Part shown: positions 12,944 to 33,477 of the stretch, piece after piece
Layout: each line of letters starts with the position of its first letter
Numbering within the stretch: position 1 is the stretch's first letter
NCBI GenBank assembly: GCA_028819575.1
Contig: JAPPLB010000150.1
Span: 8,683 to 72,682, forward strand
DNA: 64,000 nt
Direction of reading: 5' to 3'
DNA from: Bryobacterales bacterium
Lineage (GTDB): Bacteria; Acidobacteriota; Terriglobia; Bryobacterales; UBA6623
Program-made: the position numbers and the translations under genes
The notes under the pieces: generated by a model
The model's input: only the letters and a program-made list of their open reading frames with translations
The model's database searches: none
Told to the model about the DNA's origin: nothing

Positions 12944-13291
12944 CAGGGCGTGGCGAGGAAAGCTGGGCAATGCGTTCCCTCTAACGAACGAGCGGCCGCC
13001 GCTCTCAGAAGCCGATATAGGTGTCAGAGTACGGATCGTGCTCACCACAAGACAGCTCGCGCGAAATCGCCTGCCCATTGGCTGCTCCTCGATTGGGGCC
13101 ACCTAAAAAGCTCGGGCGAGAGCCGATCTGCTCCCGCTCTGAGCGTTGTGCCGAGAGTCGCGCCTGTTAACAGCTTTTCCGTGAATGCTGCTCGAGACTC
13201 CCTTCAACTCTCCGACGTACCTCGCTGTCCGATCATACACACGCGTTGAGGTCGGATCGGACATGATTTGCTAGAAAGTAGATCAACCGCC

Positions 13292-18337: not shown

Positions 18338-18886
18338 GTGCAGTTGAATGGTGAGCATGATTCGGCCCTACGCGAGACGGAGACAGTCTTTGCTTCGTAT
18401 CGAGAGAGCCTGATCCGCTACCTTCGGTACCAGATGGAAGACAACTCCGAAGCCGAAGACATTGCTCAAGAGGCGTTCGTTCGCTACTACGAGTCAAGAG
18501 TCCGAAGAGAGGAGATTCTCCAGCCCCGCGCCTGGTTGTTTCGAGTAGCCCACAACTTGGTGATCGACCGCGGGCGGAAAAAGAAGCCGGAGTTATTGGA
18601 CGATGAGGCTTGGCTGAATGTGGAGCGGCGATTAGCTTCTCCTTCGGCTCCCGCGGACGAAAAAGTCTACATATCGCAGTTACCGTGGCACCGGCTCAGT
18701 AAGATGGAGTTGGAGTGCATGAGGCTGCGGACGGAAGGTTTGAAGCTCCGAGAGATCGGGGAAGTGTTGGGTCTGGCTATCTCAAGTGTCGTCAGTTACC
18801 TGGCCAGAGCCACGAAGAAGTTAGGAGCGACAGAAGTCGGTGAGAATAAGGCATCTCAGCACGGAAGAACTCCTGCTCCGGTGTGA
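18338..18886 (+). CDS. ECF-type RNA polymerase sigma-70 family factor
   Basis: Region 2 (AEDIAQEAFVRYY...WLFRVAHNLVIDRGRK) and region 4 HTH (REIGEVLGLAISSVVSYLARA). Start is GTG or TTG and is uncertain. Confidence 0.88.
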   Translation: MQLNGEHDSALRETETVFASYRESLIRYLRYQMEDNSEAEDIAQEAFVRYYESRVRREEILQPRAWLFRVAHNLVIDRGRKKKPELLDDEAWLNVERRLASPSAPADEKVYISQLPWHRLSKMELECMRLRTEGLKLREIGEVLGLAISSVVSYLARATKKLGATEVGENKASQHGRTPAPV

Positions 18887-20360
18887 AGCCGAGCTAGGGT
18901 TAGAACGCGCGGCGCATCTGGATGAGTGCGAGGCGTGCCGGACTGCTCTCGTCGAACTGGTCGAGTTGCTTGACGGCGCCGAGCAGGAGTTGCGCTGTAC
19001 CGTCCCAGCGGATACCGCTGCGGAGCGTGCGGCCGCCTGGGACGCCATCGAGCAGCGTATCAGCAAGCCCGCGACGGTACTTGCCTTCCCGGCGCGCTGG
19101 GCGGCGGCTTATGGTGTAGCCGCCGTGTTGGGCTTTGCCGTTTTCAGCGGAATTACGGAAATGGATCTCTTCGGGCCGAGCCCGGTGGCCGATCCGGTTA
19201 CGAGCGCCGAGGCGACGCTTCCTGAACCACCGGCTTTGGAGCCTGCCGCGCCGGAGCCCGTTCAGCAAGAGCGGGTATCGATAGAGTCTCCTGCCGCGGC
19301 CGAATCGGAGCAAACGGAAACCGTTGCCGCCGTTGCCGCTGCGTCAGATCCTGTCATCTCTGAAAAAAAGACATTGGAGCGTTACGCGGGCGAGCCATCC
19401 GCGCCGGATGCTGTCCCGGCTGGCGCAGTGTCGTTCCTGGAACCTCCCGAGATTGCTGCTGCCCGATCGACGATGGCCTCGTTGCTGTTGCCGACGACCG
19501 CTCGATTGATCGAGCCGATTGTCGAACCCGGGATGATCGAGCAGCCTCTGTTGACTTTGGCCGCCGCCAAGGAAGTCATCGAAGGTCACTGGATTCTCCA
19601 CCGCGCCAAAGTCTGGCGTGAGGACATCGCGCCCGTCTGGACGAATAACGGACTGGCGTTCGTAGGCACTGTGGACAACGAACAAGTCCGCGACAAAGTC
19701 GCCGCTGTGGTTCGCTCGGCGCAGAAGGGCCGCGAAGTCCCGCTGGAGTTGCGGTTGCGACCCGTCTCCCCGGATTCGGACCGTTCATCCGCTTCGACTT
19801 CACTGGAGCGAGGCATTGCCGGCGGCGTTGTCCGGACAGCTCTTCTGGCCCATTACCGTGACGTGGCTCGCCGGTCGTTCGCGTCTACCGAGCCGTCGGA
19901 ACTGGAAGGCGAACTTGACCGGTTCATGAACAGCGTTTTCGAGAATCAGTCGAACCTGCTCGCTCACCTCTATCAGTTGAACGCGCTGGTGAGTGACGTG
20001 CCGGAGGAATTGGTTCCGGATGTGGCCTCTTCCAGCCGTTTCGTCGAATTGGCGGTAACCCATACCAACGCCGCTCGGCAGCACCAGGCTCGGATCTACG
20101 ACCTGTTGTCCGAGTCGCTGCCACGCAAGTACTGGAGCTACAAAACCAAGGATGGCGACGTTCCATTCAAGGGTCTTCATGGTGAAGCAAAAGCGTTGTT
20201 GCAAGATGCTCTGGAACTCGACGCTACTCTCACCGCCTTGCTGAGCACTCCTCAGCATCTGCTGGATGCCGGTGACGCGAACGTTTCCTGCGGAGAAGCG
20301 CTGAGCCGCATTCGCACTCGTCTGAGTCGCATCAAAGCCGATACCGCTAAACTACGGTAG
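18840..20360 (+). CDS. ZAS-type anti-sigma factor, single-pass membrane protein with a large periplasmic domain
   Basis: Hx3Cx2C motif (HLDECEAC) and one TM helix (WAAAYGVAAVLGFAVFSGI). Follows the ECF sigma gene. The 47-nt overlap makes the start uncertain. Confidence 0.7.
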   Translation: MRIRHLSTEELLLRCEAELGLERAAHLDECEACRTALVELVELLDGAEQELRCTVPADTAAERAAAWDAIEQRISKPATVLAFPARWAAAYGVAAVLGFAVFSGITEMDLFGPSPVADPVTSAEATLPEPPALEPAAPEPVQQERVSIESPAAAESEQTETVAAVAAASDPVISEKKTLERYAGEPSAPDAVPAGAVSFLEPPEIAAARSTMASLLLPTTARLIEPIVEPGMIEQPLLTLAAAKEVIEGHWILHRAKVWREDIAPVWTNNGLAFVGTVDNEQVRDKVAAVVRSAQKGREVPLELRLRPVSPDSDRSSASTSLERGIAGGVVRTALLAHYRDVARRSFASTEPSELEGELDRFMNSVFENQSNLLAHLYQLNALVSDVPEELVPDVASSSRFVELAVTHTNAARQHQARIYDLLSESLPRKYWSYKTKDGDVPFKGLHGEAKALLQDALELDATLTALLSTPQHLLDAGDANVSCGEALSRIRTRLSRIKADTAKLR

Positions 20361-20366
20361 GCGGCT

Positions 20367-23300
20367 ATGTCCTACCGGGTCGGTATTGTCGCAGGTGTAG
20401 TGGCGTGCCTGCTCGGGACGGTTGCCCATGCCGTTGATCCCTGCGTGATTCGCGGTAACGTAATCACGTCGGGCTCGGAGCCTCTTCCGGGCACGCAGGT
20501 TGAACTGATCGACTTTTCCACCGGAAAGGTCATCGTCACCCATACGGACTCGCAAGGACGCTTTGCATTCGAGGGTTTGGCGACCGGCCGCTACTCCGTT
20601 TCTTTTTCGCTCGAGCAATATGCGACCCAAAGGATCGGGCCCTACGAGTTGCTGCCCGGCATCCCGCTCGAGCTTTTGGTGCAACTGCAGAGTCTGGCCC
20701 CGCCTTTGACGCGGGCGAAGGCCGGCCTGGAAGGCATCGCACTTGAGTACGGACTCGTTCGCGAGCAGATCGAGGGTTTGCCGGTTCTGGTCGGCAGCGA
20801 AGGCCGTACGTCGGTCGACAAGCTGTTGTTGATGGTTCCGGGCATGAGTCCGACGACTTCGCTTGAGGTCGATCCTTTCTCGGGACGCGGCGCAGCGGTC
20901 TCAGCCAACGGTTCACGACGTTCGGCGATCAACTACCAGTTCGATGGCGCGCTGAACAATTCGCAGAATCGCATCACTGGCGCGCAAGCCGCGACCTTCG
21001 GGCCCATACCGGAAGCCGTCGAGTCTTTTCGTGTCGTGACGCACACCTATTCGGCGGCTGACGGTCGTAACGCAGGCGCGATCGTGGCCCCGCTGTCGCG
21101 GCGCGGCGATAACAATTGGCACGGATCGCTACGAAGCTTCTGGCGCCCTGGCATGAACGATGCCCTGGAGTCGTTCGACGGCTCGACGGATTCCATCAAT
21201 GGATGGACCGGAGGTGGACAGATCGGTGGGCCGCTATGGCGCAAGCGTGGACTCTTCTTTCTGTTGGACGCCGAAGGCTGGGGCACGCAGCGTGAGCATC
21301 TTGAAATCTCGAACGTCTTGAGCGAAGCAGAGCGCTCGGGAGACTTTTCGGCCGTTCCCGCCTTTGACCGACCCATCGATCCTGATACGCTCCAGCCCTA
21401 TCCCAATGCGCAGTTGCCCACGACCACCTTCGATCCGTTAATGGCCAAATATCTCGACACCTTTGTGCCGAGGGCCAACGTCGATACAAACCTGCATCGG
21501 CAACAGAGCACGCTTGACAGCAGCGGCGAGATGCTGCTTGGCCGGTTGGATTACCGGCGCCGACAGTGGTTGATGAGCTGGAGTCACCACACCTTCCGGA
21601 ATACCGTGCGGGACCCGCTGTCGGAGGTGCTGCTCACCGTGCCCGGGGTAGCCGAACAGCGGCGCCAGCTTTCCAACAACTCTCAAATCTCCATCACATA
21701 TTCGCCGACAGCCAACTTCACACACTCGACCGGCATAGCCGGACAGCGTCTGGCGATTGGCCGCTGGCAAGGACTCCTGGACTTTCGTGATGTGTCGGCC
21801 GAGAGTGTCGGATTCAATTTCCGGAGCTTCGGTACTGACCCCGGAACGATCCCCGACGTTACGCTTTTGACCAACGCAGGCGCGGAGAAACTGCGCATTA
21901 CACCGTTCTTGTTCAGTGAGGGTTCAGCGCAGACGACGCTTCAGCTTCGCGAAGACGTCAACTATCGCCGCGAGCGCGTGGGCTTGCGCGCAGGCGTGTC
22001 CTATCAGCGCGGCGTCTGGCCGTTTTCCAACACCGAGAACCATGCCGGCAGCTTCACGTTTGGAACCCCTGCTACCGGGGGGACGCGCAACAGCGTGGCG
22101 AACCTGCTCAGCGGCGTCCCAAGTGGCTACCGTTTGCAGACGCCGCGAAGCTTGAATCTTCACTGGACCGAGTGGGCCTACTACGGCGAGGCCGTGTTGC
22201 GGCCGTTTCGTGGTGCGCAAATCACTCTCGGCTTGCGGTACGAGTCGCAGCCGCCGGCGGTCGACCGGCTGGATCGCGTGGCGGCTTTTCGCGAGGAAGT
22301 GGAATCGCAGCGTTTTCCCGACACCTTGTCGAACCTCATCTTCCCCGGCGATCCCGATGGCGACCTCGGGCCGTTGCCACGCTCAACGGTCGAGACGGAT
22401 GGCAAGCACTTCGTTCCACGCGTTGGCCTCAGCTATTCTCCGGTATCGGACAACCGGGTCTCGCGTTGGATCTTCGGCGAGTCCGGACGCTCGGTTTTCC
22501 GTGCTTCCTACGGCGTCTTCTACGATTTCGGGACGTTCGCCGGATCAAGCGCCGCGGCGCTGTTTCAGGCCACCTATCCGCCGTTCAGCACCGATAACCG
22601 TTTCGACTTCACGCCGTTCTCCGGCACCCAAGGGAGTTTCGAAGCGCCGCTGTCGAAGATTCCGGTGCTCGATCCGAATGCGATTCGCAGTCAGTATGTG
22701 ACGTATCCCATCCGGGTGTTTGATCGCAATTTCGACAACGCCTTTGCCCGGCATTGGACCATCGGTTGGCAGCGCCTGCTGCCCGGGCGCGTGCTGGTTA
22801 GTGGGGTTTACCTGGGTACACGGAGCGAACAATTACAGCGGCAGCGTGAGTTGAACGTCTTCAGGCGCAATCCTCTCCTGCCGTTCAGCTTCATCAGCGG
22901 CATGCGCCGGTACTCGCTGTACACGGATATCCGGCAATTCGAGAGCACAGGCACGAGTCTTTACCACGCGGCTCAAATTCGTGCGACGCGGTACCTGAAC
23001 CGGGGCCTGGCCTTCGACGTGAGCTACAACTGGTCCCGCGCGCACGACGACGGCAGCACCACGTTTGGAGATGAGTTGAATACGGAGCCCTGGGCTCTGT
23101 CCAACTTTGATCGCCGCAACACGTTTACGGCTACCTGGTTCTATCAGCTTGGCTTGGCGCCGGGCCTGCGAAACCGCGCGGCTTGGCTTGACGGATGGAT
23201 GATCAGCGGCACTTGGCGATATCGCTCCGGGTTGCCCCTCGATATCCGGCAAACGCAGGACCCGACGTTCAGTTTCGAGCACGTCGGGCGACCGGATCTG

Positions 23301-23681
23301 GTAGGTGAATTCCGGCGGCTCGATCCCGGCGAGAATCGGACTTTCACTTTATCCGACGGGCGCAAGATCACCGGTCGATTCGCTTTCGACCCGACGGCGT
23401 TTCAACGTGTCGGGCCCACCGATTTTGACGAGTTGCGGCCGGGTAACGTCGGACGGAACCAGTTCACCACCGGTGGCTTTCAGCAGTGGGACATGCGTGT
23501 CGCCAAGGCGGTCAGCTTGAACGAAGCTCTGTCCGCGAACGTCGGCCTCGACTTCATCAACCTCTTCAACAATAAAAACTGGGACCTGCCGTTCAACAAT
23601 ATCGACCATCCGTTCTTCGGTGTCGTGCGAACGGAAGGGCTTGATCGCACGCTTCAGTTGAGCGTTCGGCTTCAGTTCTAG
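20367..23681 (+). CDS. TonB-dependent-receptor-like outer-membrane protein with N-terminal carboxypeptidase-regulatory-like domain
   Basis: Signal peptide. CarboxypepD_reg segment (IRGNVITSGSEPLPGTQVELID...GRFAFEGLATGRYSVS). About 1000 aa of barrel ending in the OMP signal ...LSVRLQF. Confidence 0.85.
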   Translation: MSYRVGIVAGVVACLLGTVAHAVDPCVIRGNVITSGSEPLPGTQVELIDFSTGKVIVTHTDSQGRFAFEGLATGRYSVSFSLEQYATQRIGPYELLPGIPLELLVQLQSLAPPLTRAKAGLEGIALEYGLVREQIEGLPVLVGSEGRTSVDKLLLMVPGMSPTTSLEVDPFSGRGAAVSANGSRRSAINYQFDGALNNSQNRITGAQAATFGPIPEAVESFRVVTHTYSAADGRNAGAIVAPLSRRGDNNWHGSLRSFWRPGMNDALESFDGSTDSINGWTGGGQIGGPLWRKRGLFFLLDAEGWGTQREHLEISNVLSEAERSGDFSAVPAFDRPIDPDTLQPYPNAQLPTTTFDPLMAKYLDTFVPRANVDTNLHRQQSTLDSSGEMLLGRLDYRRRQWLMSWSHHTFRNTVRDPLSEVLLTVPGVAEQRRQLSNNSQISITYSPTANFTHSTGIAGQRLAIGRWQGLLDFRDVSAESVGFNFRSFGTDPGTIPDVTLLTNAGAEKLRITPFLFSEGSAQTTLQLREDVNYRRERVGLRAGVSYQRGVWPFSNTENHAGSFTFGTPATGGTRNSVANLLSGVPSGYRLQTPRSLNLHWTEWAYYGEAVLRPFRGAQITLGLRYESQPPAVDRLDRVAAFREEVESQRFPDTLSNLIFPGDPDGDLGPLPRSTVETDGKHFVPRVGLSYSPVSDNRVSRWIFGESGRSVFRASYGVFYDFGTFAGSSAAALFQATYPPFSTDNRFDFTPFSGTQGSFEAPLSKIPVLDPNAIRSQYVTYPIRVFDRNFDNAFARHWTIGWQRLLPGRVLVSGVYLGTRSEQLQRQRELNVFRRNPLLPFSFISGMRRYSLYTDIRQFESTGTSLYHAAQIRATRYLNRGLAFDVSYNWSRAHDDGSTTFGDELNTEPWALSNFDRRNTFTATWFYQLGLAPGLRNRAAWLDGWMISGTWRYRSGLPLDIRQTQDPTFSFEHVGRPDLVGEFRRLDPGENRTFTLSDGRKITGRFAFDPTAFQRVGPTDFDELRPGNVGRNQFTTGGFQQWDMRVAKAVSLNEALSANVGLDFINLFNNKNWDLPFNNIDHPFFGVVRTEGLDRTLQLSVRLQF

Positions 23682-23934: not shown

Positions 23935-25158
23935 CTAACGGACCGCCATCACCTGGACTTGTTCGAGTTGGCTTTGGATCACCTGGAGCGTGGTCCGTAC
24001 CGGCGGGTTGTTGGGGAAGTACTCTTTGAACACCGCATTCATCTCGTCCATGTCGGCCATGTCTTTGAGATAGACGTGGGCGTCGACCACGTGCTCCATA
24101 TCCATCCCGGCAAGGTTCAACGTATCCCGGATCTTCTCCAGCGAGTCGCGCATCTGCTCCGCTACCGTTTCTCCTGCACCCGACTTGCCGGACGTCCAAA
24201 GCGTATCTCCCGCGAGGACACCGCCTCCGGATGAGGTCGGGCTGGTTCTCATATACCCGGGAACGACTCGGCCCTTGTTGCCCGAATCACGGGTAGCGAC
24301 GAAGGTGATCTCGGTCGAGATCGTCCCCGGCAGTCTCGAAACACAGAAGCTGGCCCGGCTCGACGCGCTGCCGATCGTGAAAAAGTTCTTGTAAACGGAG
24401 TTCAACCTGCCGTAAACGGGCCCGCGATTGCCTTCGGGATCGAGGAAGTAGACGTTCACAAAGACGGCGTCTTCGTGGTCGAGTCCGGCGGCGTTGAGGA
24501 TTGCGCCGATGTTCTTCATCGTCTGTTCGGTCTGGCCCTCGATCGTGGGATCGATTTCGTTTGTCTGCGGATGACGGCCTCCGCTGCCGGAAACGTACAG
24601 CATGTCTCCGGCCCAAACACCGGGCCGATACGGCCCCATGGCGGCCGGGATCGAGCCCTCGGGAGGAATGACGATCGAGATCTTCGACTTGTCGGCGTAG
24701 GCGATGCAGGTGACTTCGAGATTGGCATTGCCGGGCAGGCCGGGAAATTCGAGCGTCGTTCGAGCCGGAAAGTGCTCGGGGCCGAAGTAGCTGCCGTAAA
24801 CTTCGTTCATGTCCTTGTAGTTGTCCATGTCGGCGAGTTGGACATGGCAAGTAACGACGTTCGAGAAGTCCATGCCGGCCGCTCGCAGGACATGTCCCAT
24901 GTTGTCCATCGCCATACGGGTCTGGTCGGCAATGCCATCGGGCTGGTCGCCGGTCTTCGGGTCTCTGTCGATCTGGCCGGAAATGTAAAGGTAGTCATCG
25001 ACCAGGATGCCGGGCGTATACGGTTTGCCGGCCGCGAATTCGTCCGGGTAGATGAACTGCCTCTCGACCTTGTAGTGATGCTCGCCGATCAGAATGCCCG
25101 CCAAGGGCGAGAGGAGCGAGAGGAAACCGATCAGACAAACAGTGGATTTCAATTTCAT
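23935..25158 (-). CDS. exported protein made of three tandem RidA/YjgF/L-PSP domains
   Basis: Signal peptide MKLKSTVCLIGFLSLLSPLAG. Three RidA-like units of roughly 120 aa, each with a YxSGQ/SG motif and a conserved Arg (PARTT, SSRAS, PVRTT). Confidence 0.85.
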   Translation of the reverse strand: MKLKSTVCLIGFLSLLSPLAGILIGEHHYKVERQFIYPDEFAAGKPYTPGILVDDYLYISGQIDRDPKTGDQPDGIADQTRMAMDNMGHVLRAAGMDFSNVVTCHVQLADMDNYKDMNEVYGSYFGPEHFPARTTLEFPGLPGNANLEVTCIAYADKSKISIVIPPEGSIPAAMGPYRPGVWAGDMLYVSGSGGRHPQTNEIDPTIEGQTEQTMKNIGAILNAAGLDHEDAVFVNVYFLDPEGNRGPVYGRLNSVYKNFFTIGSASSRASFCVSRLPGTISTEITFVATRDSGNKGRVVPGYMRTSPTSSGGGVLAGDTLWTSGKSGAGETVAEQMRDSLEKIRDTLNLAGMDMEHVVDAHVYLKDMADMDEMNAVFKEYFPNNPPVRTTLQVIQSQLEQVQVMAVR

Positions 25159-25176
25159 GGGTGTTCTCCTTGGCTC

Positions 25177-26418
25177 CTATCGGACGGCAATCATGGAGAT
25201 TTCTTCGAGCACTTTCTCGCGAGGCCCCTCCTGCATTACCTGTACAGTAGTGCGCACGGGCTGGTTGGAAGGGAAGTACTCTCGGAAGATCTCCGTCATC
25301 TTGGGCATGTCGTCGAGATTCTTCAGGTAGACGTTGGTGCTGACCACGTTTTCAAGACCCATACCGGCGATTTTGAGAATCCGCAGTCTGGATTCGATCG
25401 ACGCGCGGAACTGCGACTCGATGTCGTCCCCTGCGCCCGGAGCGGATTTCGCCGAGAGATACATCGTGTTGCCGTCGATCGTCGCCGGGACGGCCGTGTG
25501 CGAGGGCCGGCGCCCATGTGGGTAGACGCGGCCTTTTTTTCGCATGTTGCGCGTCGCAATGAAGGTGATCTCGACACTGATGGTTCCGGGAAGCCGCGAC
25601 AAGCAGAAGCTCGCCCTGGCCGAAGGCCGCCCGAGGTCGAAGTACTCGCTGTAAACCGAGTTCAGCTTGCCGTAGTTCTCGGGTCCCAGGTAGTAAGGAT
25701 TCACCATCACCGTGTTTTCGTAGTCAAGGCCGGCGGCCTTGAGAATCTCGCCGACCGTGTCGAGTGTCTGCTTCGTCTGCCCTTCGATCGTCGGGTCGAT
25801 CTCGTTCGTCTGCGGATTGCGGCCTCCTTGTCCGGACAGGTAGAGCGTATCGCCGGCCCACACGGCGGGCGAGTAGGGGCCCATCGCGGCGGGCGTTTTG
25901 CCCTCCTCGGGGCGGACGACTTCGATTTTCGACTTGTCGCCATAGGCGATGCAGGTGATCTCGAGGCGCGAGTCCGAGGGCAAGGCGGGGAACTCCAGCG
26001 TCGTCCGAGCGGGGTAGCGTCCGGACGTGTAGTAGCTGCCGTAGACCTTGTTCATGCCCTGGTAATCATCCATGTCGTCAAGCTGCACGTGGCACGTCAC
26101 GACGTTGTCGTAGTCCATGTCCGCGTCGCGCAGCACGTAGCCCATGTTCTTCATCGCCATGTGGGTCTGCTCTTCGATCGTTGAGGGCTGCTCGCGCGTC
26201 TGAGGATCAAGACTGACTTGACCGGCGATATAGAGTGTCTCGCCGACGAGGACGCCGGGGCTGTACGGCTTGCCGGGCGGGAACTCTTGGGGGTAAATGA
26301 ACTTGCGTTCGACCTTGAAGGACGGGCCTTCTGCTTCCGGCGCCTCAGGTGCGCAGCCCAAGGCCAGAGCCGTCAAGACAACAATGACAATCGAATGCAG
26401 TTTCACTCGCTCCTCCAA
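25177..26418 (-). CDS. lipoprotein made of three tandem RidA/YjgF/L-PSP domains (paralog of 23935-25158)
   Basis: Lipobox LTALALGC. Same three-unit layout (PARTT, SARAS, PVRTT). High identity to the neighbouring gene. Confidence 0.85.
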   Translation of the reverse strand: MEERVKLHSIVIVVLTALALGCAPEAPEAEGPSFKVERKFIYPQEFPPGKPYSPGVLVGETLYIAGQVSLDPQTREQPSTIEEQTHMAMKNMGYVLRDADMDYDNVVTCHVQLDDMDDYQGMNKVYGSYYTSGRYPARTTLEFPALPSDSRLEITCIAYGDKSKIEVVRPEEGKTPAAMGPYSPAVWAGDTLYLSGQGGRNPQTNEIDPTIEGQTKQTLDTVGEILKAAGLDYENTVMVNPYYLGPENYGKLNSVYSEYFDLGRPSARASFCLSRLPGTISVEITFIATRNMRKKGRVYPHGRRPSHTAVPATIDGNTMYLSAKSAPGAGDDIESQFRASIESRLRILKIAGMGLENVVSTNVYLKNLDDMPKMTEIFREYFPSNQPVRTTVQVMQEGPREKVLEEISMIAVR

Positions 26419-26575: not shown

Positions 26576-26956
26576 CTACCAGCCCGTCCTGGGCCCCGGA
26601 TACGGACCCACCTGCCGGATCCGAGGAAACGTCTCCACCGTTCCTCCCGCTTCAATCACTTCCAAACACTCCCGAGCCGACCGCTCAATCGCCTGCGTAT
26701 CCACTCCGTCCCACTCCGGCAGATAGCCTTGAATCTTCTTCAGCCCTTTGCGAAGCTGCCTCGTCGCCCCGACAACGTTCCGGTTGCGGTGGTGATAGAA
26801 GCCGACCGCGAAATGAATCAGGCTTTGCAGGAACCAGCGGTCGGGCTGTTTCGTGGGCGTCCAGACCTCTTCCAGCACTTCATGACAGTCGTAGAACTCG
26901 CCTCCGTTAAACAGGTCGATGCCCTTTTGGAACAGGAGTTTGGGATCGGACTGCAT
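26576..26956 (-). CDS. DUF309 domain protein
   Basis: FNGGEFYDCHEVLEEVW...LQSLIHFAVGFYH is the DUF309 signature. The start is placed at the ATG at 26956 (MQSDPKLL). Confidence 0.8.
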   Translation of the reverse strand: MQSDPKLLFQKGIDLFNGGEFYDCHEVLEEVWTPTKQPDRWFLQSLIHFAVGFYHHRNRNVVGATRQLRKGLKKIQGYLPEWDGVDTQAIERSARECLEVIEAGGTVETFPRIRQVGPYPGPRTGW

Positions 26957-27182
26957 GTTAAAAGTCCGTGTTGAAACCCCGCGTAGCACCGAGAGCGGCC
27001 CGCATAGCACCGCTAATGGCGCTGTGCCCGGCTGACAAGGCGCGACCATGGAGCATATTGGACATATTCGACCGAGAAGCAACGCAGTTCAGCCGGGATG
27101 TATCGCCGCTTGAATGTAGAGGGGTTTTTGCCACGGGCTGCTAAACTCAACAGTTTATTTCACGGGCCCTTCCGAGTCCTGA

Positions 27183-28248: not shown

Positions 28249-28898
28249 CGGCGCTGCCTGAACGCCGTTCCTTGAAAGCGGAGTTCCTCCGAGGAATTCA
28301 GCGAAGCCGATGATGCGATTCGAGAACACGGAGTTTCGATACGGATCGGATCGATGACCGCTTCCCGCATCCTGTGGGAGTGCCTGGAGCCGCATCATAT
28401 GCAAGTCCGCAGCGGAATCATTTCTTCCGGCAGGGTCGTTATTCCGGCGCGGGTCTGGAGCAGCCCGCATGGTGAGTGCCTCCTCTGATGCGGAGAAGCA
28501 GGTGGCTGAAAAATGCAAGGTCGGGAGTCTCTGCAACGAAGATGGAGGTCCGCTCGCCTCGCCGCTTATAGTCTTGTCCGGAACCTTTTCCCCTAAAAGA
28601 ACACTGCTTCGTTATCTGGCAGGAGTGGACGGCGGTTCATGGGGGCCAAATGTACGATTTCATACAAGCATTAACTCGTCGATCAACCCGCCTTGGTGCC
28701 CCGCGAAAGTGGCCTCGCGACCGTCAATAGCGCGATTTGCGGGTTATTTATGGTTTCTAGTGCTCCGCCGCTCCGACCTTGCAACCTTTATCGTGTTGGT
28801 GACGTCGTACTGCACTACCGTGGGCCTGTGTCAGAGGGGTTTTCCGTGTTAGCCTTACTTACAGTTCCAGACTGAGTGCCCCTGATGTAGGTATGCTC

Positions 28899-30332
28899 AT
28901 GCAGCGGATCAAGATACTGGCTGCCGTTTTAGGTTTGTTGTTTGCCACCACTGTCTGGTCTCAACAAGACGGAGACAGAGACGGCGGGGCCACCGGTAAC
29001 CCGCCAGGTGGGGCTACCGGCGGCGTGCCGGGTGGGACTGCTGGTGACATACCAGGAGGGGCTGCCGGTGGCTTGCCAGGTGGCCCGCCAGGTGGGGCTA
29101 TTGGCGGTGCGCCAGGGGGCACGACCGGTGGCAGGCCAGAGGGGGCTACCCGTGGCACAACCGGTGACGGTGACCGAGGTAGGGGAAACCGCCCAACCAC
29201 CGAAGATCAGCAGGAAGACATCATCGACCCCTACAGAGAGCAGCAAGAACAGCCGCAGCCATTTCCTCGATCGCAGAACGGGCACCTGCGTCTGCGGCGT
29301 CCGGTCATTCTCAGCGGCAAGGTCATGTTGGGAAACGGCATGACGCCTCCGGAGCCGGTGAGGATTTACGTGGAGTGCGATGGCCGGCGCATGACCACCG
29401 ACTATACCAATAGCAAGGGTGTCTTCAACGTCGATCTTAACAATCCTCAAAACACCTTTCTCGATGCGGGCGTCGGAGGTCCTTGGAAAGGTCACGGAGT
29501 CTGCGTCGACCGGTTTGGGCGAGTCAACCTGTTCGGTTGCCAGCTTTTCGCCGAGTTGGGCGGCTATCGAGCTGATCCGATTCAATTGGTTGCTCGTCGC
29601 AGCATCTTTGACAATCCCGACGTCGGAGCGATAGTCCTGCGACGCTTGGATGGTGTCGATGGTATGTCCATCAGTTACACCAGTCTGTCAGCCCCCGGGA
29701 AGGCCAAAAAAGCCTACGGCAAGGCATTCAGGGAAATGCAGAAGAGGGGACCGGACCTGCAAAAGGCCGAGAAGGAATTGGAGACGGCGGTGGGCTTGCA
29801 CTCCGAATACGCCGCGGCCTGGAACCTGCTGGGCCACGCTCGCCTGATGCAGGGCGACCGGGAACGCGGCCGGGCCGCGTTCGAAAAGGCTGTCGAAGCC
29901 GACCCGAAATTCCTGGATCCCTACCCCGCTCTCGCGCGTCTGGCGCTCGTCGAGGAGCGCTGGGATGATGGCCTGCAATGGTCGAATCAGCTTCTGCGGC
30001 TGAATCCCCACGTTGCGATTTCACATTACTATTCGGCCATTGCCAACTTTCGTTTAGGCCGCATGGAGGCTTCCAAGAAGTCGATGCTCGATCTTCAGGA
30101 GAAAAGCGCCGGCAGAGATTTTCCCCGGTCGCATCAGATCCTCGGTATGATCCATGCTGAACAGGGGCTCTACGAGCAGGCTGCCACATCCTATCGCGAC
30201 TATCTCGCGGTGCAGCCGGACGGGCCTTTCGCTTTACAGATCCAACGTCAACTCCGCGATTGGGAATTGCTGGGGGTGATCCGGAAACAGGAGACCGCCG
30301 CGGCGCCGACCGTCGCCGTCACCCAGGACTGA
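28899..30332 (+). CDS. secreted Gly-rich repeat / beta-sandwich / TPR protein, paralog 1 of 3
   Basis: Conserved start MQRIKIL plus signal peptide. About 70 aa of PGGxxGxx repeats, a CarboxypepD_reg-like unit (LSGKVMLGNGMTPPEPVRIYVECDG) and a C-terminal TPR region. A start 6 nt upstream is possible. Confidence 0.85.
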   Translation: MQRIKILAAVLGLLFATTVWSQQDGDRDGGATGNPPGGATGGVPGGTAGDIPGGAAGGLPGGPPGGAIGGAPGGTTGGRPEGATRGTTGDGDRGRGNRPTTEDQQEDIIDPYREQQEQPQPFPRSQNGHLRLRRPVILSGKVMLGNGMTPPEPVRIYVECDGRRMTTDYTNSKGVFNVDLNNPQNTFLDAGVGGPWKGHGVCVDRFGRVNLFGCQLFAELGGYRADPIQLVARRSIFDNPDVGAIVLRRLDGVDGMSISYTSLSAPGKAKKAYGKAFREMQKRGPDLQKAEKELETAVGLHSEYAAAWNLLGHARLMQGDRERGRAAFEKAVEADPKFLDPYPALARLALVEERWDDGLQWSNQLLRLNPHVAISHYYSAIANFRLGRMEASKKSMLDLQEKSAGRDFPRSHQILGMIHAEQGLYEQAATSYRDYLAVQPDGPFALQIQRQLRDWELLGVIRKQETAAAPTVAVTQD

Positions 30333-30510: not shown

Positions 30511-30621
30511 TTTTTGTTGTTGGCGACGTCGTACTGCGCTACCAAAGGCCTTGGTCGGAGGGGGTTTCTGTGAGTGCCTTACTGACAGTTGCAGCCTGAA
30601 TACCCGAAAGGGGGGATGATC

Positions 30622-31875
30622 ATGCAACGGATCAAGATTCTGGCTGCCGTTTTGGGCTTGTTGTTTGCTACGGCTGTCTGGTCTCAACAAGACGGCGGCA
30701 GAGGCAGTGGCGGCACGACCGGCGGCTCTGGCGGCACGACCGGTGGCGGTGGCCGAAGTACGGGAAACCTTCCAACCACCGGCGGTCAGCAGGGACGTAG
30801 TACCTACGACTCCTACCGACGGCAGGACTTGGACCTCCGCAGGCGCCCGTTTTACCTCAGCGGCAAGGTTGTGTTGGCGAACGGCATGACGCCTCCTGAG
30901 CCGGTGAAGGTTTACTTGGATTGCGACGGTCAGCGCCGGCCCGCCGGCTACACCAATTCCAAGGGTACCTTCAGGGTCGATCTCACCGATCGCAACACCC
31001 CCTTTGCCGATGCGAGCATGGGAGGGATGGGGCCACGGCGCGGATTCAGCAGCAGCGGCCTCGGACGAGTCACCCTGTTCGGTTGCCAGCTTCTCGCCGA
31101 GTTGGGCGGCTATCAAGCTGATCCGATTCCGTTTGGTAGTCGCAGCATCTTTGACAATCCCAATGTCGGAACGATGGTCCTGCGACGCTTGGATGGTGTT
31201 GAAGGTATGCCTATCAGTTTCACCAGTCTGTCAGCCCCCAATAAGGCCAGAAAAGCCTACGACAAGGCATTCAGGGAAATGCAGAAGAAAGAGCCGAACC
31301 TGCAAAAGGCCGAGAAGGAATTGGAGACGGTGGTGGGCTTGCACTCCGAATACGCCGCGGCCTGGAATATGCTGGGCCGCGTTCGCATGATGCAGGCCGA
31401 CCGGGAAGGCGGCCGGACCGCGTTCGAGAAGGCTGTCGAAGCCGACCCGAAATACCTCGATCCCTATCCCGATCTCGCACTTCTGGCGCTCACCGAGGAG
31501 CGCTGGGACGATGGCCTGCAGTGGTCGAATCAGCTTCTGCGGCTGAATCCCCACGTTGCGATTGCTCATTATTATTCGGCCATTGCAAACTTTTATTTAG
31601 GCCGGATGGAGGCTTCCAGGAAGTCGGTGCGAGAGCTCAAGGAGAAAAGCGCCGACGGATATTTTCCCCAGTCGCATCTGATCCTCGGCATGATCCATGC
31701 TCAACAGGGGCTCTACGAGCAGGCAGCCATATCCTTCCGCGACTATCTCACGGTGCAGCCGGACGGGCCCGTCGCTTCACAGATCCAACGTCAACTCCAC
31801 GATTGGGAAGTTCTGGGGAAGATCCGGAAACAGGAAGACCCCGGGGCGCCGACCGCGGCCATGCCCCGGAACTGA
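30622..31875 (+). CDS. secreted Gly-rich / beta-sandwich / TPR protein, paralog 2 of 3
   Basis: Same architecture as paralog 1 with a shorter Gly-rich tract. RBS AAAGGGGGG. The conserved upstream 120 nt is also present. Confidence 0.85.
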   Translation: MQRIKILAAVLGLLFATAVWSQQDGGRGSGGTTGGSGGTTGGGGRSTGNLPTTGGQQGRSTYDSYRRQDLDLRRRPFYLSGKVVLANGMTPPEPVKVYLDCDGQRRPAGYTNSKGTFRVDLTDRNTPFADASMGGMGPRRGFSSSGLGRVTLFGCQLLAELGGYQADPIPFGSRSIFDNPNVGTMVLRRLDGVEGMPISFTSLSAPNKARKAYDKAFREMQKKEPNLQKAEKELETVVGLHSEYAAAWNMLGRVRMMQADREGGRTAFEKAVEADPKYLDPYPDLALLALTEERWDDGLQWSNQLLRLNPHVAIAHYYSAIANFYLGRMEASRKSVRELKEKSADGYFPQSHLILGMIHAQQGLYEQAAISFRDYLTVQPDGPVASQIQRQLHDWEVLGKIRKQEDPGAPTAAMPRN

Positions 31876-32053: not shown

Positions 32054-32163
32054 TTTCTGTTGTTGGCGACGCCTTACTGCAAAACCGAAGGCCTTGGTCA
32101 CAGGGGTTTGCTGTGATAGCCTTACTGGCAGTTCCGGCCTGAATACCCGACAGGAGGGTGATC

Positions 32164-33477
32164 ATGCAACGAATCAGGATTCTGGCTACCGTTCTGGGTT
32201 TGTTGTTTACGACGGCTGTCTGGGCTCAACAGACAGGCGGCACTGGCGGTACCACCGGGGGCGCCACCGGTGGCACGACAGGTGGCGGTGGCCGAGGTAG
32301 TACGGGAAACCTCCCGACCACCGGCGGTCAGCAGGGGCGAACCAGCGACCCCTACGGACGGGAGCAACAGCAGATTCCCCAACCGGACTTCAGGCGCCCG
32401 CTGTATCTCAGCGGCAAGGTCGTGTTGGCGAACGGCATGCCGCCTCCGGAGCCGGTGAAGATTTATTTGGATTGCAACGGCCAGCGCCGGCCCGCCGGCT
32501 TCACCAATACCAAGGGCACCTTCAGCGTCGATCTTAACGATCGCAACAACCTCGCGTTTGCCGATGCGAGCGTCCAGGGAGCACCCGTTGGGATAGGGCA
32601 ACAAGGGGGCGGGGGCGGATTCGGCACTGTCGGAACCAACCTTTCTTCTCGCAGCGACGGCCTCGGTCGAGTCAACCTGTTCGGTTGTCAGCTTCTCGCC
32701 GAGTTGGGGGGCTATCAAGCTGACCCGGTTCCTCTGGGTACTCGCAGCGTCTTTGACAACCCCAACATCGGAACGATGGTCATGCAGCGCTTGGATGGAG
32801 TAGAAGGTTCGTCCATCAGTGTCACCAGTCTGTCAGCCCCCAAGAAGGCCAAGAAAGCCTACGACAAGGCCTTCAGGGAGATGCAGAAGAAGGAGCCGAA
32901 CCTGCAAAAGGCCAAAAAAGAGTTGGAGTCGGCGGTGGGTCTGCACTCCGAGTACGCTACGGCCTGGAACCTGCTGGGTCGCATTCGAATGATGCAGGAC
33001 GACCTCGAAGGAGGCCGGGCCGCGTTCGAGAAGGCTGTCGAAGCCGACCCGAAATTCCTGGATCCCTATCCCGCTCTCTCGCGTCTGGCGCTCACTGAGC
33101 AGCGCTGGGACGATGGCCTGCAGTGGTCGAATCAGCTTCTGCGGTTGAATCCCCACGCCTCGATGGCGCATTACTTTTCGGCCATTGCCAACTTCCGTTT
33201 AGGACGGATGGAGGCTTCCAAGAAGTCGGTGATCGAGCTCAAGGAGAAGAATGCCGACAGAGACTTTCCCCAGTCCCATCAGATCCTTGGCATGATCCAT
33301 GCTCAACAGGGGCTCTACGAGCAGGCGGCCACATCCTACCGCGACTATCTCACGGTGCAGCCGGACGGCCCCGCCGCTTCGCAGATCAAACGCCAGCTCC
33401 ACGAATGGGAAATTCTGGGGGTGATCCAGAAAAAGGAAGCCGCGGCGGCGCCGACAGCCGCCGTCCCCCAGAACTGA
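32164..33477 (+). CDS. secreted Gly-rich / beta-sandwich / TPR protein, paralog 3 of 3
   Basis: Same architecture as paralogs 1 and 2. RBS CAGGAGGG lies 5 nt before the ATG. Confidence 0.85.
   Translation: MQRIRILATVLGLLFTTAVWAQQTGGTGGTTGGATGGTTGGGGRGSTGNLPTTGGQQGRTSDPYGREQQQIPQPDFRRPLYLSGKVVLANGMPPPEPVKIYLDCNGQRRPAGFTNTKGTFSVDLNDRNNLAFADASVQGAPVGIGQQGGGGGFGTVGTNLSSRSDGLGRVNLFGCQLLAELGGYQADPVPLGTRSVFDNPNIGTMVMQRLDGVEGSSISVTSLSAPKKAKKAYDKAFREMQKKEPNLQKAKKELESAVGLHSEYATAWNLLGRIRMMQDDLEGGRAAFEKAVEADPKFLDPYPALSRLALTEQRWDDGLQWSNQLLRLNPHASMAHYFSAIANFRLGRMEASKKSVIELKEKNADRDFPQSHQILGMIHAQQGLYEQAATSYRDYLTVQPDGPAASQIKRQLHEWEILGVIQKKEAAAAPTAAVPQN

What the first reader, a model, noticed from the sequence alone, without database searches (positions are those of the whole stretch)
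23935..26418. Two tandem exported proteins, each a fusion of three RidA/YjgF domains (single-chain pseudo-trimers)
Direct observations:
- Both ORFs (407 and 413 aa) divide into three consecutive units of about 115-125 aa with RidA hallmarks. For 23935-25158 these include ...LYISGQID..., ...LYVSGSGG... and ...LWTSGKSG..., and each unit keeps an Arg in the P(A/V)R(T/S) or SRAS position.
- The N-termini are a hydrophobic signal (MKLKSTVCLIGFLSLLSPLAG) and a lipobox (LTALALG|C).

Established knowledge: RidA/YjgF proteins are cytosolic homotrimers of about 125 aa. Their active sites sit at subunit interfaces, and an invariant Arg is needed for enamine/imine deaminase activity.

Inference: here the trimer is encoded as one chain with three non-identical interfaces and is exported. 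The substrate or role is likely to differ from canonical RidA.
Basis: partly seen in the sequence, partly recalled or inferred. Interest (0 to 1): 0.6.

Follow-up and report, generated by a model that had tools for sequence, protein, structure and literature searches.

The report
Exported single-chain triple RidA pair
Two neighbouring genes in a soil Acidobacterium each encode three RidA (imine deaminase) units fused into one exported chain, a fusion type already named "3x-RidA"; its export and its usual pairing in related genomes with an exported PLP ammonia-lyase point to an undescribed deamination pathway outside the cytoplasm.

Summary
ORFs 23935-25158 (A, 407 aa) and 25177-26418 (B, 413 aa), both on the minus strand, each hold three PF01042 Rid domains (E 4e-66 and 3e-68). 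All six units keep the catalytic Arg. AlphaFold2 gives compact three-unit bodies (pTM 0.90 and 0.89).

The fusion is not new: Niehaus et al. 2015 named it "3x-RidA" and presumed a covalent trimer.

What I found no description of:
- **Export is a clade trait.** A has a Sec signal. B and all its orthologs have a lipobox plus a Pro/Glu/Ala tether.
- **Two canonical sites and one remodelled site.** Units 1 and 2 keep all seven RidA invariant residues. Unit 3 keeps Arg/Asn but has Tyr17->Ser and Glu120->Gln in 80 of 81 relatives.
- **A recurrent exported partner.** In 23 of 39 lineages (Acidobacteriota, Planctomycetota) the gene lies within 6 kb of a Tat-signal DgaE-like PLP ammonia lyase, usually adjacent. 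A Sec-signal amidohydrolase and an outer-membrane barrel often accompany it.
- **Route depends on fusion.** Unfused Rid neighbours of such lyases carry Tat signals (116 of 120); fused ones carry Sec or lipoprotein signals.

The 64-kb window contains neither the lyase nor the amidohydrolase. The most likely function is periplasmic enamine/imine deaminase. This is a new variant of a known kind, of moderate interest.

The parts
25177..26418 (-). Gene B: lipoprotein-type 3x-RidA (413 aa from the TTG at 26418; the likely true start is the GTG at 26406)
   Evidence: ORF. Three PF01042 stretches, 228 bits. GGAGGAG Shine-Dalgarno before the GTG. AF2 pLDDT 91.3, pTM 0.89.
26353..26406 (-). B signal peptide MKLHSIVIVVLTALALG plus the lipobox Cys (codon 26355-26353), followed by the Pro/Glu/Ala-rich tether APEAPEAEGPS
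   Evidence: Sequence read. The lipobox is conserved in all B-type orthologs (ALALGC, SLGLGC, LLSAGC, LLFAGC, LSVAC). AF2 shows helix 2-15 and then a disordered segment 18-23.
25933..26331 (-). B unit 1 (RidA-like; Tyr17, Gly31, Asn57, Asn88, Arg105, Pro114 and Glu120 equivalents all present)
25543..25932 (-). B unit 2 (RidA-like; all invariant residues kept except Asn57->Thr)
25180..25542 (-). B unit 3 (divergent: Arg105 and Glu120 kept; Tyr17->Val, Gly31->Ala, Asn57->Ser, Asn88->Thr)
25159..25176 (-). 18-nt B-A spacer containing the AAGGAG ribosome-binding site of A (25166-25171); the two genes look co-transcribed
   Evidence: Sequence. The tandem pair is conserved in five dereplicated lineages.
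23935..25158 (-). Gene A: soluble exported 3x-RidA (407 aa)
   Evidence: ORF. Three PF01042 stretches, 221 bits. AF2 pLDDT 92.8, pTM 0.90.
25084..25158 (-). A Sec-type signal peptide MKLKSTVCLIGFLSLLSPLAGILIG, with probable cleavage before EHHY
   Evidence: Orthologs end in AFA|EHHH, LLG|EHHH and LFA|DHHF. pLDDT is 45-64 over residues 1-30. No SignalP was available.
24688..25083 (-). A unit 1 (all seven RidA invariant residues; 100% conserved in 81 relatives, except E120 in 80 of 81)
24283..24687 (-). A unit 2 (all seven invariant residues; a small insertion EGNRGPVY in the loop before the second helix)
23938..24282 (-). A unit 3 (keeps Gly31, Asn88 and Arg105; Tyr17->Ser, Asn57->Lys, Pro114->Ser, Glu120->Gln; shortened loop after SGK)
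20367..23681 (+). Convergent outer-membrane barrel gene (CarboxypepD_reg + OMP_b-brl_4, weak Plug). It is a possible uptake partner, but the link in this window is weak.
   Evidence: Pfam. A member of the same BLAST cluster lies within 6 kb of a 3x-RidA gene in 10 of 39 lineages, and directly downstream in the cluster AMIDO>3xRidA>PLP>OMP. The background frequency of this family in Acidobacteria is not negligible.
18338..20360 (+). ECF-type sigma factor (18338-18886) and a putative anti-sigma factor (18840-20360) upstream of the OMP gene. This is context only.
   Evidence: Pfam Sigma70_r2/r4. The arrangement is conserved only in the close relatives, the WIN and L001 groups.

Best explanation
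**What A and B are.** A and B are paralogous members of the already named 3x-RidA class. Each chain folds into a pseudo-trimer of three Rid domains. Both leave the cytoplasm as unfolded chains through Sec. A becomes a soluble periplasmic protein. B is lipid-anchored through Cys and held on a short Pro/Glu/Ala tether.

**Active sites.** A RidA site needs Asn88 and Arg105 from one subunit and Tyr17, Gly31, Asn57, Pro114 and Glu120 from the next. The fused chain therefore carries two canonical enamine/imine-deaminase sites, built from the intact halves of units 1 and 2. It also carries one remodelled site that keeps the Arg but has Ser and Gln in place of Tyr and Glu.

**Most likely job (inferred).** The proteins hydrolyse the enamine/imine released by exported PLP-dependent ammonia lyases, yielding a 2-keto acid and NH3. 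This would speed the pathway and protect the PLP enzyme outside the cytoplasm. In most related lineages that partner is encoded next door: a Tat-exported DgaE-like lyase. It often comes with a Sec-exported amidohydrolase/deacetylase and an outer-membrane barrel, which suggests this order of steps:
1. uptake across the outer membrane;
2. de-N-acylation;
3. alpha,beta-elimination;
4. imine hydrolysis, acting on an amino-sugar acid or a D-amino-acid-like substrate.

**This window's lineage.** Here the gene was duplicated into A and B and no longer sits beside the lyase.

**Shown versus inferred.** Shown: domain content, residue conservation, signal features, the predicted fold and the synteny. 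Inferred: catalysis, the substrate, the compartment and the partnership in this organism.
For: - **Domains:** three PF01042 domains per chain.
- **Fold:** compact, confident three-unit models. RidA monomers fit each third.
- **Site composition:** taken from PMC12218379, Fig. 5 legend. Units 1 and 2 keep 7 of 7 invariant residues. Unit 3 keeps Arg105 in 80 of 81 relatives but has Tyr17->Ser and Glu120->Gln in 80 of 81.
- **Export signals:** conserved across about 100 homologs and all B orthologs.
- **Synteny:** 23 of 39 dereplicated lineages, from Bryobacterales, Vicinamibacterales and Planctomycetota, have one neighbour family within 6 kb, mostly adjacent.
- **Identity of the neighbour:** TIGR01437 DgaE family, E 1e-42 to 1e-55. 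It aligns over its full length to the DgaE crystal structure 7lc0 at E 1e-37, with a lysine aligned. Nearly all complete copies carry twin-arginine motifs.
- **Another Tat PLP neighbour:** the L004 relative sits next to a different Tat-signal PLP enzyme of the Aminotran_5 class.
- **Other recurrent neighbours:** a PRK09237 amidohydrolase (439 bits against a cutoff of 371 for the Vicinamibacterales representative), with Sec signals on the copies with an intact N-terminus, in 11 of 39 lineages; and an RraA-like aldolase in 6 of 39.
- **Reverse test:** 10 of 33 well-flanked metagenomic DgaE-like loci have a Rid gene within 6 kb.
- **Precedent:** the ong cluster combines a transporter, a deacetylase, a PLP deaminase and an essential RidA (PMC9537276).
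Against: - The 64-kb window holds no DgaE-like, amidohydrolase or RraA homolog (tblastn). None of the tandem-pair lineages has the lyase within 6 kb; only L018 has an amidohydrolase nearby. I could not search the rest of the genome.
- The DgaE-like neighbours score below the NCBIfam cutoffs (144-188 bits against 385), so their substrate is unknown.
- No signal-peptide predictor was available. The calls rest on motif and hydropathy heuristics plus conservation.
- The trimer geometry was not measured on coordinates.
- Only 30% of the broader set of DgaE-like loci have a nearby Rid gene.
- No enzymatic or localisation data exist for any exported Rid protein.
Confidence: 0.55

Rival explanations
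1. A and B are general periplasmic imine scavengers or nitrogen-release enzymes. They are not tied to a PLP lyase. They hydrolyse imino acids made by periplasmic or membrane-bound amino-acid or amine dehydrogenases and oxidases (PQQ, FAD or cytochrome-linked), as RidA homologs do for DauA and DadA.
For: - The window pair has no lyase neighbour.
- PQQ dehydrogenase plus cytochrome c genes recur near 3x-RidA genes in 6 of 39 lineages, including the L001 relative of the window.
- Rid proteins have broad imine deaminase activity and accelerate DauA (title and abstract of PMC5619798, listed). DadY is a Rid protein of the dad operon (PMC9714295, listed).
Against: - The PQQ association (6 of 39) is much weaker than the DgaE-like association (23 of 39) and is not conserved in position.
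- The PQQ enzymes nearby look like sugar or alcohol dehydrogenases rather than amine dehydrogenases. This is based on Pfam names only.
Confidence: 0.2
2. A and B are non-catalytic exported proteins, either small-molecule (carboxylate) binders or stress-activated holdases, that merely reuse the Rid scaffold. The remodelled third site would be the functional one.
For: - Unit 3 carries a different but strongly conserved residue set: Ser310, Gln400 and the SPTSS motif, conserved in 90% or more of relatives.
- Planctomycetota relatives lose the Arg of unit 2, so full catalytic symmetry is not required.
- From my own knowledge: E. coli RidA becomes a chaperone holdase after N-chlorination, and many Rid structures bind assorted carboxylates.
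Against: - All seven catalytic-site residues of units 1 and 2 are invariant across 81 relatives, as expected for maintained catalysis.
- The conserved adjacency to an imine-producing enzyme class predicts a deaminase role.
Confidence: 0.12
3. The N-terminal hydrophobic segments are start-codon artefacts or uncleaved segments, and the proteins are cytoplasmic 3x-RidA like EF_0115.
For: - Cytoplasmic-type triple fusions that start directly at "...APAAIGPY" do exist (P0148, P0154).
- The ORF-based start of B is indeed slightly wrong.
Against: - Good Shine-Dalgarno sequences sit before the ATG of A and the GTG of B.
- There is no alternative in-frame Met in A before the middle of unit 1.
- Signal-like N-termini vary in sequence but keep their properties in about 100 homologs, and they end right before a conserved mature strand.
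- The lipobox is conserved in all B orthologs.
- The neighbouring pathway enzymes are also signal-tagged.
Confidence: 0.03

Closest known systems
3x-RidA (Niehaus et al. 2015, BMC Genomics 16:382, PMC4433059; example EF_0115 of Enterococcus faecalis V583)
   Same: Three RidA-type domains fused in tandem in one chain of about 400 aa. The authors presumed a covalently linked trimer. A and B fit this definition.
   Different: - The paper contains none of the words signal peptide, periplasm, secreted, extracellular or lipoprotein.
- A and B are exported, by Sec and as a lipoprotein.
- Their third unit is remodelled, whereas cytoplasmic-type triples such as P0148 and P0154 have three near-identical canonical units.
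- Relatives of A and B sit beside Tat-exported PLP lyases.
- No 3x-RidA has a solved structure or, in the literature I could search, an assay.
Canonical RidA homotrimers (S. enterica RidA, E. coli YjgF/TdcF, human and goat UK114)
   Same: - Same fold: TM normalised to the target 0.84-0.93, rmsd 1.3-2.2 A per unit.
- 25-37% identity per unit.
- The same seven invariant active-site residues in units 1 and 2.
- The essential Arg is present in all six units.
   Different: - One chain instead of three.
- Only two of the three sites are canonical.
- N-terminal export signals.
- An extra N-terminal strand motif, YKVxRKFIYP.
OngD in the ong cluster for oxidized-chitin (GlcNAc1A) catabolism, Pseudoalteromonas prydzensis (Jiang et al. 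2022, PMC9537276)
   Same: The cluster has the same logic: an outer-membrane TonB-dependent transporter, an amidohydrolase deacetylase (OngB), a PLP deaminase producing a 2-keto-3-deoxy acid plus NH3 (OngC), and a RidA-family protein that is genetically essential (OngD).
   Different: - OngD is a 127-aa single-domain protein.
- OngB and OngC are predicted to be cytoplasmic.
- OngC is a fold-type III enzyme and OngB a D-aminoacylase type. They are not orthologous to the DgaE-like (fold-type I, SelA-like) and PRK09237 enzymes found here.
DgaE, D-glucosaminate-6-phosphate ammonia lyase (Salmonella dga operon; PDB 7lc0)
   Same: The recurrent neighbour of 3x-RidA aligns with DgaE over its full length (E 1e-37), with a lysine aligned at SGGK/SGAK. 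From my own knowledge, that is the position of the PLP-binding Lys in this family. It also hits TIGR01437 and NF047797. From my own knowledge, the DgaE reaction goes through an enamine/imine, the substrate class of RidA.
   Different: - The neighbours carry Tat signals.
- They score below the family cutoffs (144-188 bits against 385-600).
- The Bryobacterales forms have an extra C-terminal domain of about 130 aa.
- DgaE is cytoplasmic and acts on a phosphorylated PTS product, which is unlikely in the periplasm.
PvdN-type Tat-exported periplasmic PLP enzymes
   Same: These are a precedent for cofactor-loaded PLP enzymes exported by Tat. The Tat-signal Aminotran_5 neighbour in L004 weakly hits the NCBIfam model "pyoverdine-tailoring periplasmic protein PvdN" (E 7e-10).
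   Different: It is a different PLP subfamily and pathway, and I know of no reported link to Rid proteins.

Membership tests
Rid (YjgF/YER057c/UK114) family, Pfam PF01042 | Significant match to the family profile above the curated cutoff | tested here: met
   221 and 228 bits against a cutoff of 27.3, with three stretches in each protein. TIGR00004 gives 229 and 237 bits against 106.
RidA-type imine deaminases (Arg-containing Rid subfamilies) | Arg105 (E. coli numbering), the only residue shown to be essential for imine hydrolysis | tested here: met
   Present in all six units. Conserved in 81, 81 and 80 of 81 relatives for units 1, 2 and 3.
RidA-type imine deaminases | All seven invariant active-site residues (Tyr17, Gly31, Asn57, Asn88, Arg105, Pro114, Glu120) | tested here: inconclusive
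   Met in units 1 and 2 of A. B unit 2 has Asn57->Thr. Not met in unit 3: A keeps only Gly31, Asn88 and Arg105. The result is two canonical sites and one non-canonical site.
RidA-type imine deaminases | Enamine/imine deaminase activity | not testable with these tools
The searchable literature has no data on any exported or triple Rid protein.
3x-RidA (Niehaus 2015) | [quoted passage not shown] | tested here: met
   definition in PMC4433059
3x-RidA (Niehaus 2015) | The units pack like a RidA homotrimer (covalently linked trimer) | tested here: inconclusive
   AF2 pTM of 0.90 and 0.89 with ordered linkers indicates one rigid body, and the cross-interface residues are conserved. The model coordinates could not be superposed on a trimer, and no PDB chain covers the fusion.
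Sec-exported proteins / bacterial lipoproteins | An N-terminal signal with charged n-region, hydrophobic core and cleavage site; for lipoproteins a lipobox [LVI][ASTVI][GAS]C | tested here: met
   Tested at pattern level only. A: MKLK + 19 hydrophobic residues + G|EHHY, with AFA|E in orthologs. B: ALALG|C, with a lipobox in every ortholog. 98 of 113 long homologs were classed as Sec or lipobox. SignalP and LipoP were not available.
Exported DgaE-like lyase / amidohydrolase / 3x-RidA gene cluster (defined here) | A 3x-RidA gene within a few kb of a Tat-signal DgaE-like PLP enzyme | tested here: not met
   Met in 23 of 39 lineages. Not met in this window: tblastn finds no homolog in 64 kb.

The most novel reading that the evidence does not exclude
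Fusing the three protomers is what allows an obligate trimer, whose active sites lie between subunits, to be exported unfolded through Sec and even lipid-anchored. Unfused exported Rid proteins instead use Tat, which carries pre-folded proteins. Together with Tat-exported DgaE-like PLP lyases and Sec-exported amidohydrolases, these proteins would form a previously undescribed periplasmic de-acylation and deamination pathway, with its own RidA step, in Acidobacteriota and Planctomycetota. That would extend the RidA "reactive enamine" paradigm beyond the cytoplasm.
Probability: 0.35. Interest if true: 0.7.

Novelty: new variant of a known kind. Interest (0 to 1): 0.5.

Why it matters
RidA biology has been framed as a cytoplasmic or organellar defence against 2-aminoacrylate-type intermediates of PLP enzymes.

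A large clade of exported Rid proteins would imply that PLP-dependent elimination and deamination chemistry also runs in the periplasm of abundant soil phyla. This search found over 1000 clusters of the fused form and over 6700 hits for the Tat-signal single-domain form. The conserved link to Tat-exported PLP lyases, exported amidohydrolases and outer-membrane barrels supports that reading.

That would bear on how oligotrophic Acidobacteria and Planctomycetes obtain nitrogen and carbon from amino sugars or D-amino compounds.

The split between Tat for the unfused form and Sec for the fused form gives a simple, testable reason for a gene fusion: it solves oligomer assembly after export. The arrangement of two canonical sites and one remodelled site is a natural case of asymmetry evolving once a homo-oligomer is fused.

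All of these points can be tested with standard assays.

Tried and rejected
- **Gene calling.** The first greedy ORF caller let the 569-aa antisense shadow ORF displace A and B. A retrained codon model was worse. A combined model with a filter against the reverse-complement frame reproduced the database gene calls and was used.
- **AlphaFold database.** The afdb50 fold library was not available, so other predicted 3x-RidA models could not be compared.
- **Promoters and terminators.** The scan around the pair gave no more sites than shuffled sequence.
- **Chimeric origin of unit 3.** I tested whether unit 3 derives from the Tat-signal single-domain Rid family, which shares its short loop and the NPPVRTT motif. 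Bit scores to that family (47-63) are about the same as to sibling units (41-56). The idea is not supported.
- **OMP adjacency as evidence of function.** 10 of 39 lineages have the barrel within 6 kb. This family is abundant in Acidobacteria, and the window has one copy in 64 kb. Adjacency alone is close to background. Only the co-directional clusters in Vicinamibacterales are convincing.
- **DUF309 gene.** The gene upstream of B (26576-27082) is conserved only among the closest relatives and was dropped as a partner.
- **Literature.** Searches for periplasmic, secreted or extracellular RidA, for DgaE together with RidA, and for Tat together with YjgF or L-PSP found no prior description. The library holds open-access papers only.
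Full report
**1.

The window carries two minus-strand ORFs at 23935-25158 (A, 407 aa, ATG start) and 25177-26418 (B, 413 aa from a TTG), separated by 18 nt.

Pfam PF01042 matches three separate stretches in each protein: 221 and 228 bits against a cutoff of 27.3, E 3.8e-66 and 2.8e-68. NCBIfam TIGR00004, "Rid family detoxifying hydrolase", gives 229 and 237 bits against a cutoff of 106. Each unit also matches E. coli RidA separately, at E 5e-22, 3.5e-20 and 7.5e-10 for A.

A and B are 58% identical over the mature region. Matching units are 62%, 68% and 46% identical between A and B, whereas units within one protein are only 23-35% identical to each other. The triplication is therefore old and the A/B duplication is more recent.

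The true start of B is probably the GTG at 26406, which follows a GGAGGAG. A has AAGGAG eight bases before its ATG.

A 569-aa ORF on the opposite strand (24475-26184) is a high-GC shadow ORF.

**2. Source and family size.**

The window is 98-99% identical at this locus to Bryobacterales (Acidobacteriota) MAG chromosomes. More than 1000 protein clusters (90% identity level) match A at E <= 1e-10. The 120 best are nearly all 390-438 aa, and where they are named they are called "RidA family protein". At the 50% clustering level, 106 clusters score E <= 1e-30 and most of the best 150 are triple-length.

**3. The fusion is already known.**

Niehaus et al. [quoted passage not shown] It is the only paper in the searchable library that uses the term. 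It says nothing about export.

No solved structure is a triple fusion. All PDB sequence hits are 115-165 aa, and Foldseek finds only monomers.

**4. Structure.**

AlphaFold2 with 81-sequence alignments gives mean pLDDT 92.8 and pTM 0.90 for A, and 91.3 and 0.89 for B. Each model has three beta-alpha-beta-alpha-beta-beta units and well-ordered linkers. B's model shows an N-terminal helix and then a disordered tether. A's N-terminal 30 residues are low-confidence with no assigned secondary structure.

Solved RidA monomers superpose on one third of the A model (TM normalised to the target 0.84-0.93, rmsd 1.3-2.2 A).

A pTM this high for a three-domain chain means the mutual arrangement of the units is predicted with confidence. 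I could not superpose the coordinates on a RidA trimer, so the trimer geometry is strongly suggested rather than measured.

**5. Active sites.**

According to PMC12218379 (Fig. 5 legend), a RidA site combines Asn88 and Arg105 from one chain with Tyr17, Gly31, Asn57, Pro114 and Glu120 from the adjacent chain (E. coli numbering).

| Unit (81 relatives) | State of the seven invariant residues |
|---|---|
| Unit 1 | All seven kept in all 81 relatives, except Glu120 in 80 of 81 |
| Unit 2 | All seven essentially invariant; Asn57->Thr in 9 sequences, including B |
| Unit 3 | Gly31, Asn88 (Asn or Asp) and Arg105 (80 of 81) kept; Tyr17->Ser (80 of 81), Asn57->Ser/Thr/Lys, Pro114 variable, Glu120->Gln (80 of 81) |

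B's unit 3 reads Val, Ala, Ser, Thr, Arg, Glu, Glu at these seven positions.

All three "Arg halves" are therefore intact (B's unit 3 has Thr at Asn88), and two of the three "Tyr/Glu halves" are intact. That gives two canonical sites and one remodelled but conserved site.

In Planctomycetota relatives, unit 2 often loses its Arg (to Cys, Ser, Ala or Gly), and the Glu120 position of unit 3 becomes Arg or Lys. Asymmetric decay is thus a general property of these fusions.

Cytoplasmic-type triples (P0148, P0154) keep three near-identical canonical units.

**6. Export.**

Almost every complete homolog begins with a charged n-region, a hydrophobic core and a small-residue site, immediately before the conserved strand YKVxRKFIYP. 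With a simple classifier, long A homologs split into 87 Sec, 11 lipobox, 2 Tat-like and 13 with no signal.

A's orthologs end their signals in AFA|EHHH, LLG|EHHH or LFA|DHHF.

B-type proteins occur only in lineages that have the tandem pair and are 75-83% identical to B. All complete copies carry a lipobox (ALALG|C, LGLG|C, LSAG|C, LFAG|C, LSVA|C) followed by a Pro/Glu/Ala-rich tether.

Among diverse triple-length representatives, 62 of 90 look Sec- or lipoprotein-exported and 22 have no signal.

No signal-peptide predictor was available, so these are pattern-level calls supported by conservation.

**7. Genomic context in the window.**

Downstream of A and convergent with it lies a 1104-aa outer-membrane barrel gene (CarboxypepD_reg + OMP_b-brl_4, weak Plug). 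It is preceded by genes for an ECF-type sigma factor and a probable anti-sigma factor. Upstream of B are a DUF309 gene and a divergent molybdopterin oxidoreductase gene. Only the sigma, anti-sigma and OMP genes and the tandem pair are conserved in the relative that is 84% identical.

**8. Context across the family: the main new result.**

I called genes in 53 loci that hold a triple fusion, collapsed them to 39 lineages and clustered all neighbours within 6 kb.

| Neighbour family | Lineages (of 39) | Identification | Export signal |
|---|---|---|---|
| DgaE-like PLP ammonia lyase | 23 | TIGR01437 E 1e-42 to 1e-55, below the cutoff; full-length alignment to the DgaE structure 7lc0 at E 1e-37, with a lysine aligned | Twin-arginine motifs (NRRQMLV, TRRTFFE, TKRRAFLG) on nearly all complete copies |
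| Amidohydrolase/deacetylase | 11 | PRK09237; 439 bits against a cutoff of 371 for the Vicinamibacterales representative, 327 (below the cutoff) for the Planctomycetota one | Sec signals on the copies with an intact N-terminus |
| Outer-membrane barrel | 10 | CarboxypepD_reg + OMP_b-brl_4 | not assessed |
| RraA-like aldolase | 6 | PF03737 | Unclear: a signal-like N-terminus in only some copies |

The DgaE-like neighbour appears in Bryobacterales, Vicinamibacterales and Planctomycetota, mostly directly adjacent to the 3x-RidA gene. The lysine aligned with 7lc0 is, from my own knowledge, at the position of the PLP-binding Lys in this family.

Tat-signal enolase-superfamily dehydratases, Tat-signal GFO/IDH/MocA oxidoreductases, PQQ dehydrogenases and an M19 dipeptidase also recur.

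The arrangements are:
- AMIDO>3xRidA>PLP>OMP, co-directional, in Vicinamibacterales;
- PLP<AMIDO< divergent from 3xRidA> in Planctomycetota;
- PLP< divergent from 3xRidA> in most single-copy Bryobacterales.

One further relative (L004) sits next to a different Tat-signal PLP enzyme of the Aminotran_5 class.

The tandem-pair lineages, including the window, lack the lyase within 6 kb. The whole 64-kb window has no lyase, amidohydrolase or RraA homolog.

**9. Reverse test and the Tat/Sec split.**

I started from the DgaE-like enzyme in metagenome contigs. Of 33 loci with at least 1.3 kb on both sides, 10 have a Rid gene within 6 kb, and several are 65-300 nt away. Most of these Rid genes are single-domain.

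They carry twin-arginine signals (SRRSIFRTFL, SNRRAFLKKG, TKRRTFLAGA and others) and keep Gly31, Asn88, Arg105 and Glu120. This single-domain family is very large, with 6783 hits at E <= 1e-8, and 116 of its 120 best members have the Tat motif.

So unfused exported Rid proteins use Tat, which moves folded proteins, while fused ones use Sec or the lipoprotein route, which moves unfolded chains.

The inference that fusion solves trimer assembly after Sec export is mine and is untested. Cytoplasmic triple fusions also exist, so export cannot be the only driver of fusion.

**10. Precedent for the pathway logic.**

The ong cluster of Pseudoalteromonas (PMC9537276) contains:
- an outer-membrane transporter;
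- the deacetylase OngB (an amidohydrolase);
- the PLP deaminase OngC, which converts D-glucosaminate to KDG plus NH3;
- the 127-aa RidA protein OngD, which is essential for growth but has an unknown role.

OngB and OngC are predicted to be cytoplasmic.

The cluster found here has the same four roles filled by non-orthologous, signal-tagged enzymes.

Salmonella DgaE itself acts on a phosphorylated substrate in the cytoplasm, so the exported relatives probably take a non-phosphorylated amino (sugar) acid. Their substrate is unknown.

**11. Verdict.**

A and B are exported members of the known 3x-RidA class and are probably periplasmic enamine/imine deaminases.

Four points have no description in the literature I could search:
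- the export;
- the site arrangement of two canonical and one remodelled;
- the lipoprotein paralog;
- the conserved partnership with Tat-exported DgaE-like lyases.

For the window itself the partnership is inferred by orthology only. A is 64-76% identical to the single-copy proteins that sit beside the lyase, and B is 48-60% identical to them.

I rate this a new variant of a known kind. Interest is about 0.5. Confidence in the mechanistic reading is about 0.55, with much higher confidence (about 0.9) in "exported single-chain triple Rid protein".

Noticed in passing
window 24475-26184 (+): A 569-aa ORF antisense to both A and B. It is longer than either real gene, displaced them in a naive longest-ORF gene call, and has non-coding codon statistics in the corresponding ORF of relative L001. 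It is a typical high-GC shadow ORF that could mislead automatic annotation.
   Followed up: yes
window 25075-25083 (-), mature N-terminus of A; orthologs P0003-P0012: In the tandem-pair lineages the predicted mature N-terminus of A-type proteins is His-rich (EHHY, EHHH, EQHH, DHHF). Single-copy relatives start QYKV or QFKV. With His at position 3, this would be an ATCUN-like Cu/Ni-binding N-terminus if cleavage is where predicted.
   Followed up: no
L112, L114, L117, L118, L141, L143, L145, L148, L149, L161 (Rid ORFs listed); P0271-P0390: A very large family of single-domain Rid proteins of about 158 aa (6783 hits at E <= 1e-8) with canonical twin-arginine signals (SRRSxFRTF). The catalytic Arg is kept and Tyr17 is replaced by Phe. 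They often sit directly beside DgaE-like PLP genes. I found no description of Tat-exported Rid proteins.
   Followed up: partly
L031:11293-12549, L035:11154-12281, L017:11229-12380, L006:11177-12436, L024:11578-12924: Enolase-superfamily sugar-acid dehydratase homologs (L-rhamnonate dehydratase-like) and GFO/IDH/MocA oxidoreductases with twin-arginine signals lie next to 3x-RidA genes. This hints at sugar-acid metabolism outside the cytoplasm in Acidobacteria.
   Followed up: partly
L054, L056, L057, L058, L060, L062, L063 (Planctomycetota 3x-RidA genes): In these triple fusions the catalytic Arg of unit 2 is replaced by Cys, Ser, Ala or Gly, and the Glu120 position of unit 3 is mostly Arg or Lys (Gln in L054, Glu retained in L056). 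If the Arg of unit n pairs with the Tyr/Glu half of unit n+1, both losses fall in a single interface.
   Followed up: partly
L005:6369-7955, L006:6314-7900, L017:8293-9879 and similar: The Bryobacterales DgaE-like lyases are about 528 aa. They carry a C-terminal extension of about 130 aa (…GLWEAEIRFKSGSTRHTFYLDPKGN…) that is absent from the roughly 400-aa Vicinamibacterales and Planctomycetota forms and from DgaE. It was not identified.
   Followed up: no
window 28893-30332, 30589-31875, 32158-33477 (+): Three tandem paralogous genes encode proteins with nearly identical signal peptides (MQRIKILAAVLGLLFAT…WSQQ). In the first, fully read paralog this is followed by a long Gly-rich repeat region (GGATGG…) and C-terminal TPR repeats (Pfam, run on the first only).
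   Followed up: partly
window 13268-14215 (+) and L006:9496-10485: An acetamidase/formamidase-like gene lies about 10 kb from the pair in the window (identified by eye only). An FmdA_AmdA gene lies directly downstream of the 3x-RidA gene in L006. This may be coincidence or another amide/ammonia link.
   Followed up: no
window 37765-38473 (-): Two small overlapping ORFs (130 and 109 aa) look like a HEPN / nucleotidyltransferase (MNT) toxin-antitoxin pair, from the motif …IILFGSAARG…. This was judged by eye and not checked against Pfam.
   Followed up: no
L001:11362-11622, L012:11379-11633 (c86 family): A small predicted membrane protein of about 86 aa sits between the A-type gene and the OMP gene in two tandem-pair lineages. 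It has no counterpart in the 253-nt gap at the same position in the window.
   Followed up: partly
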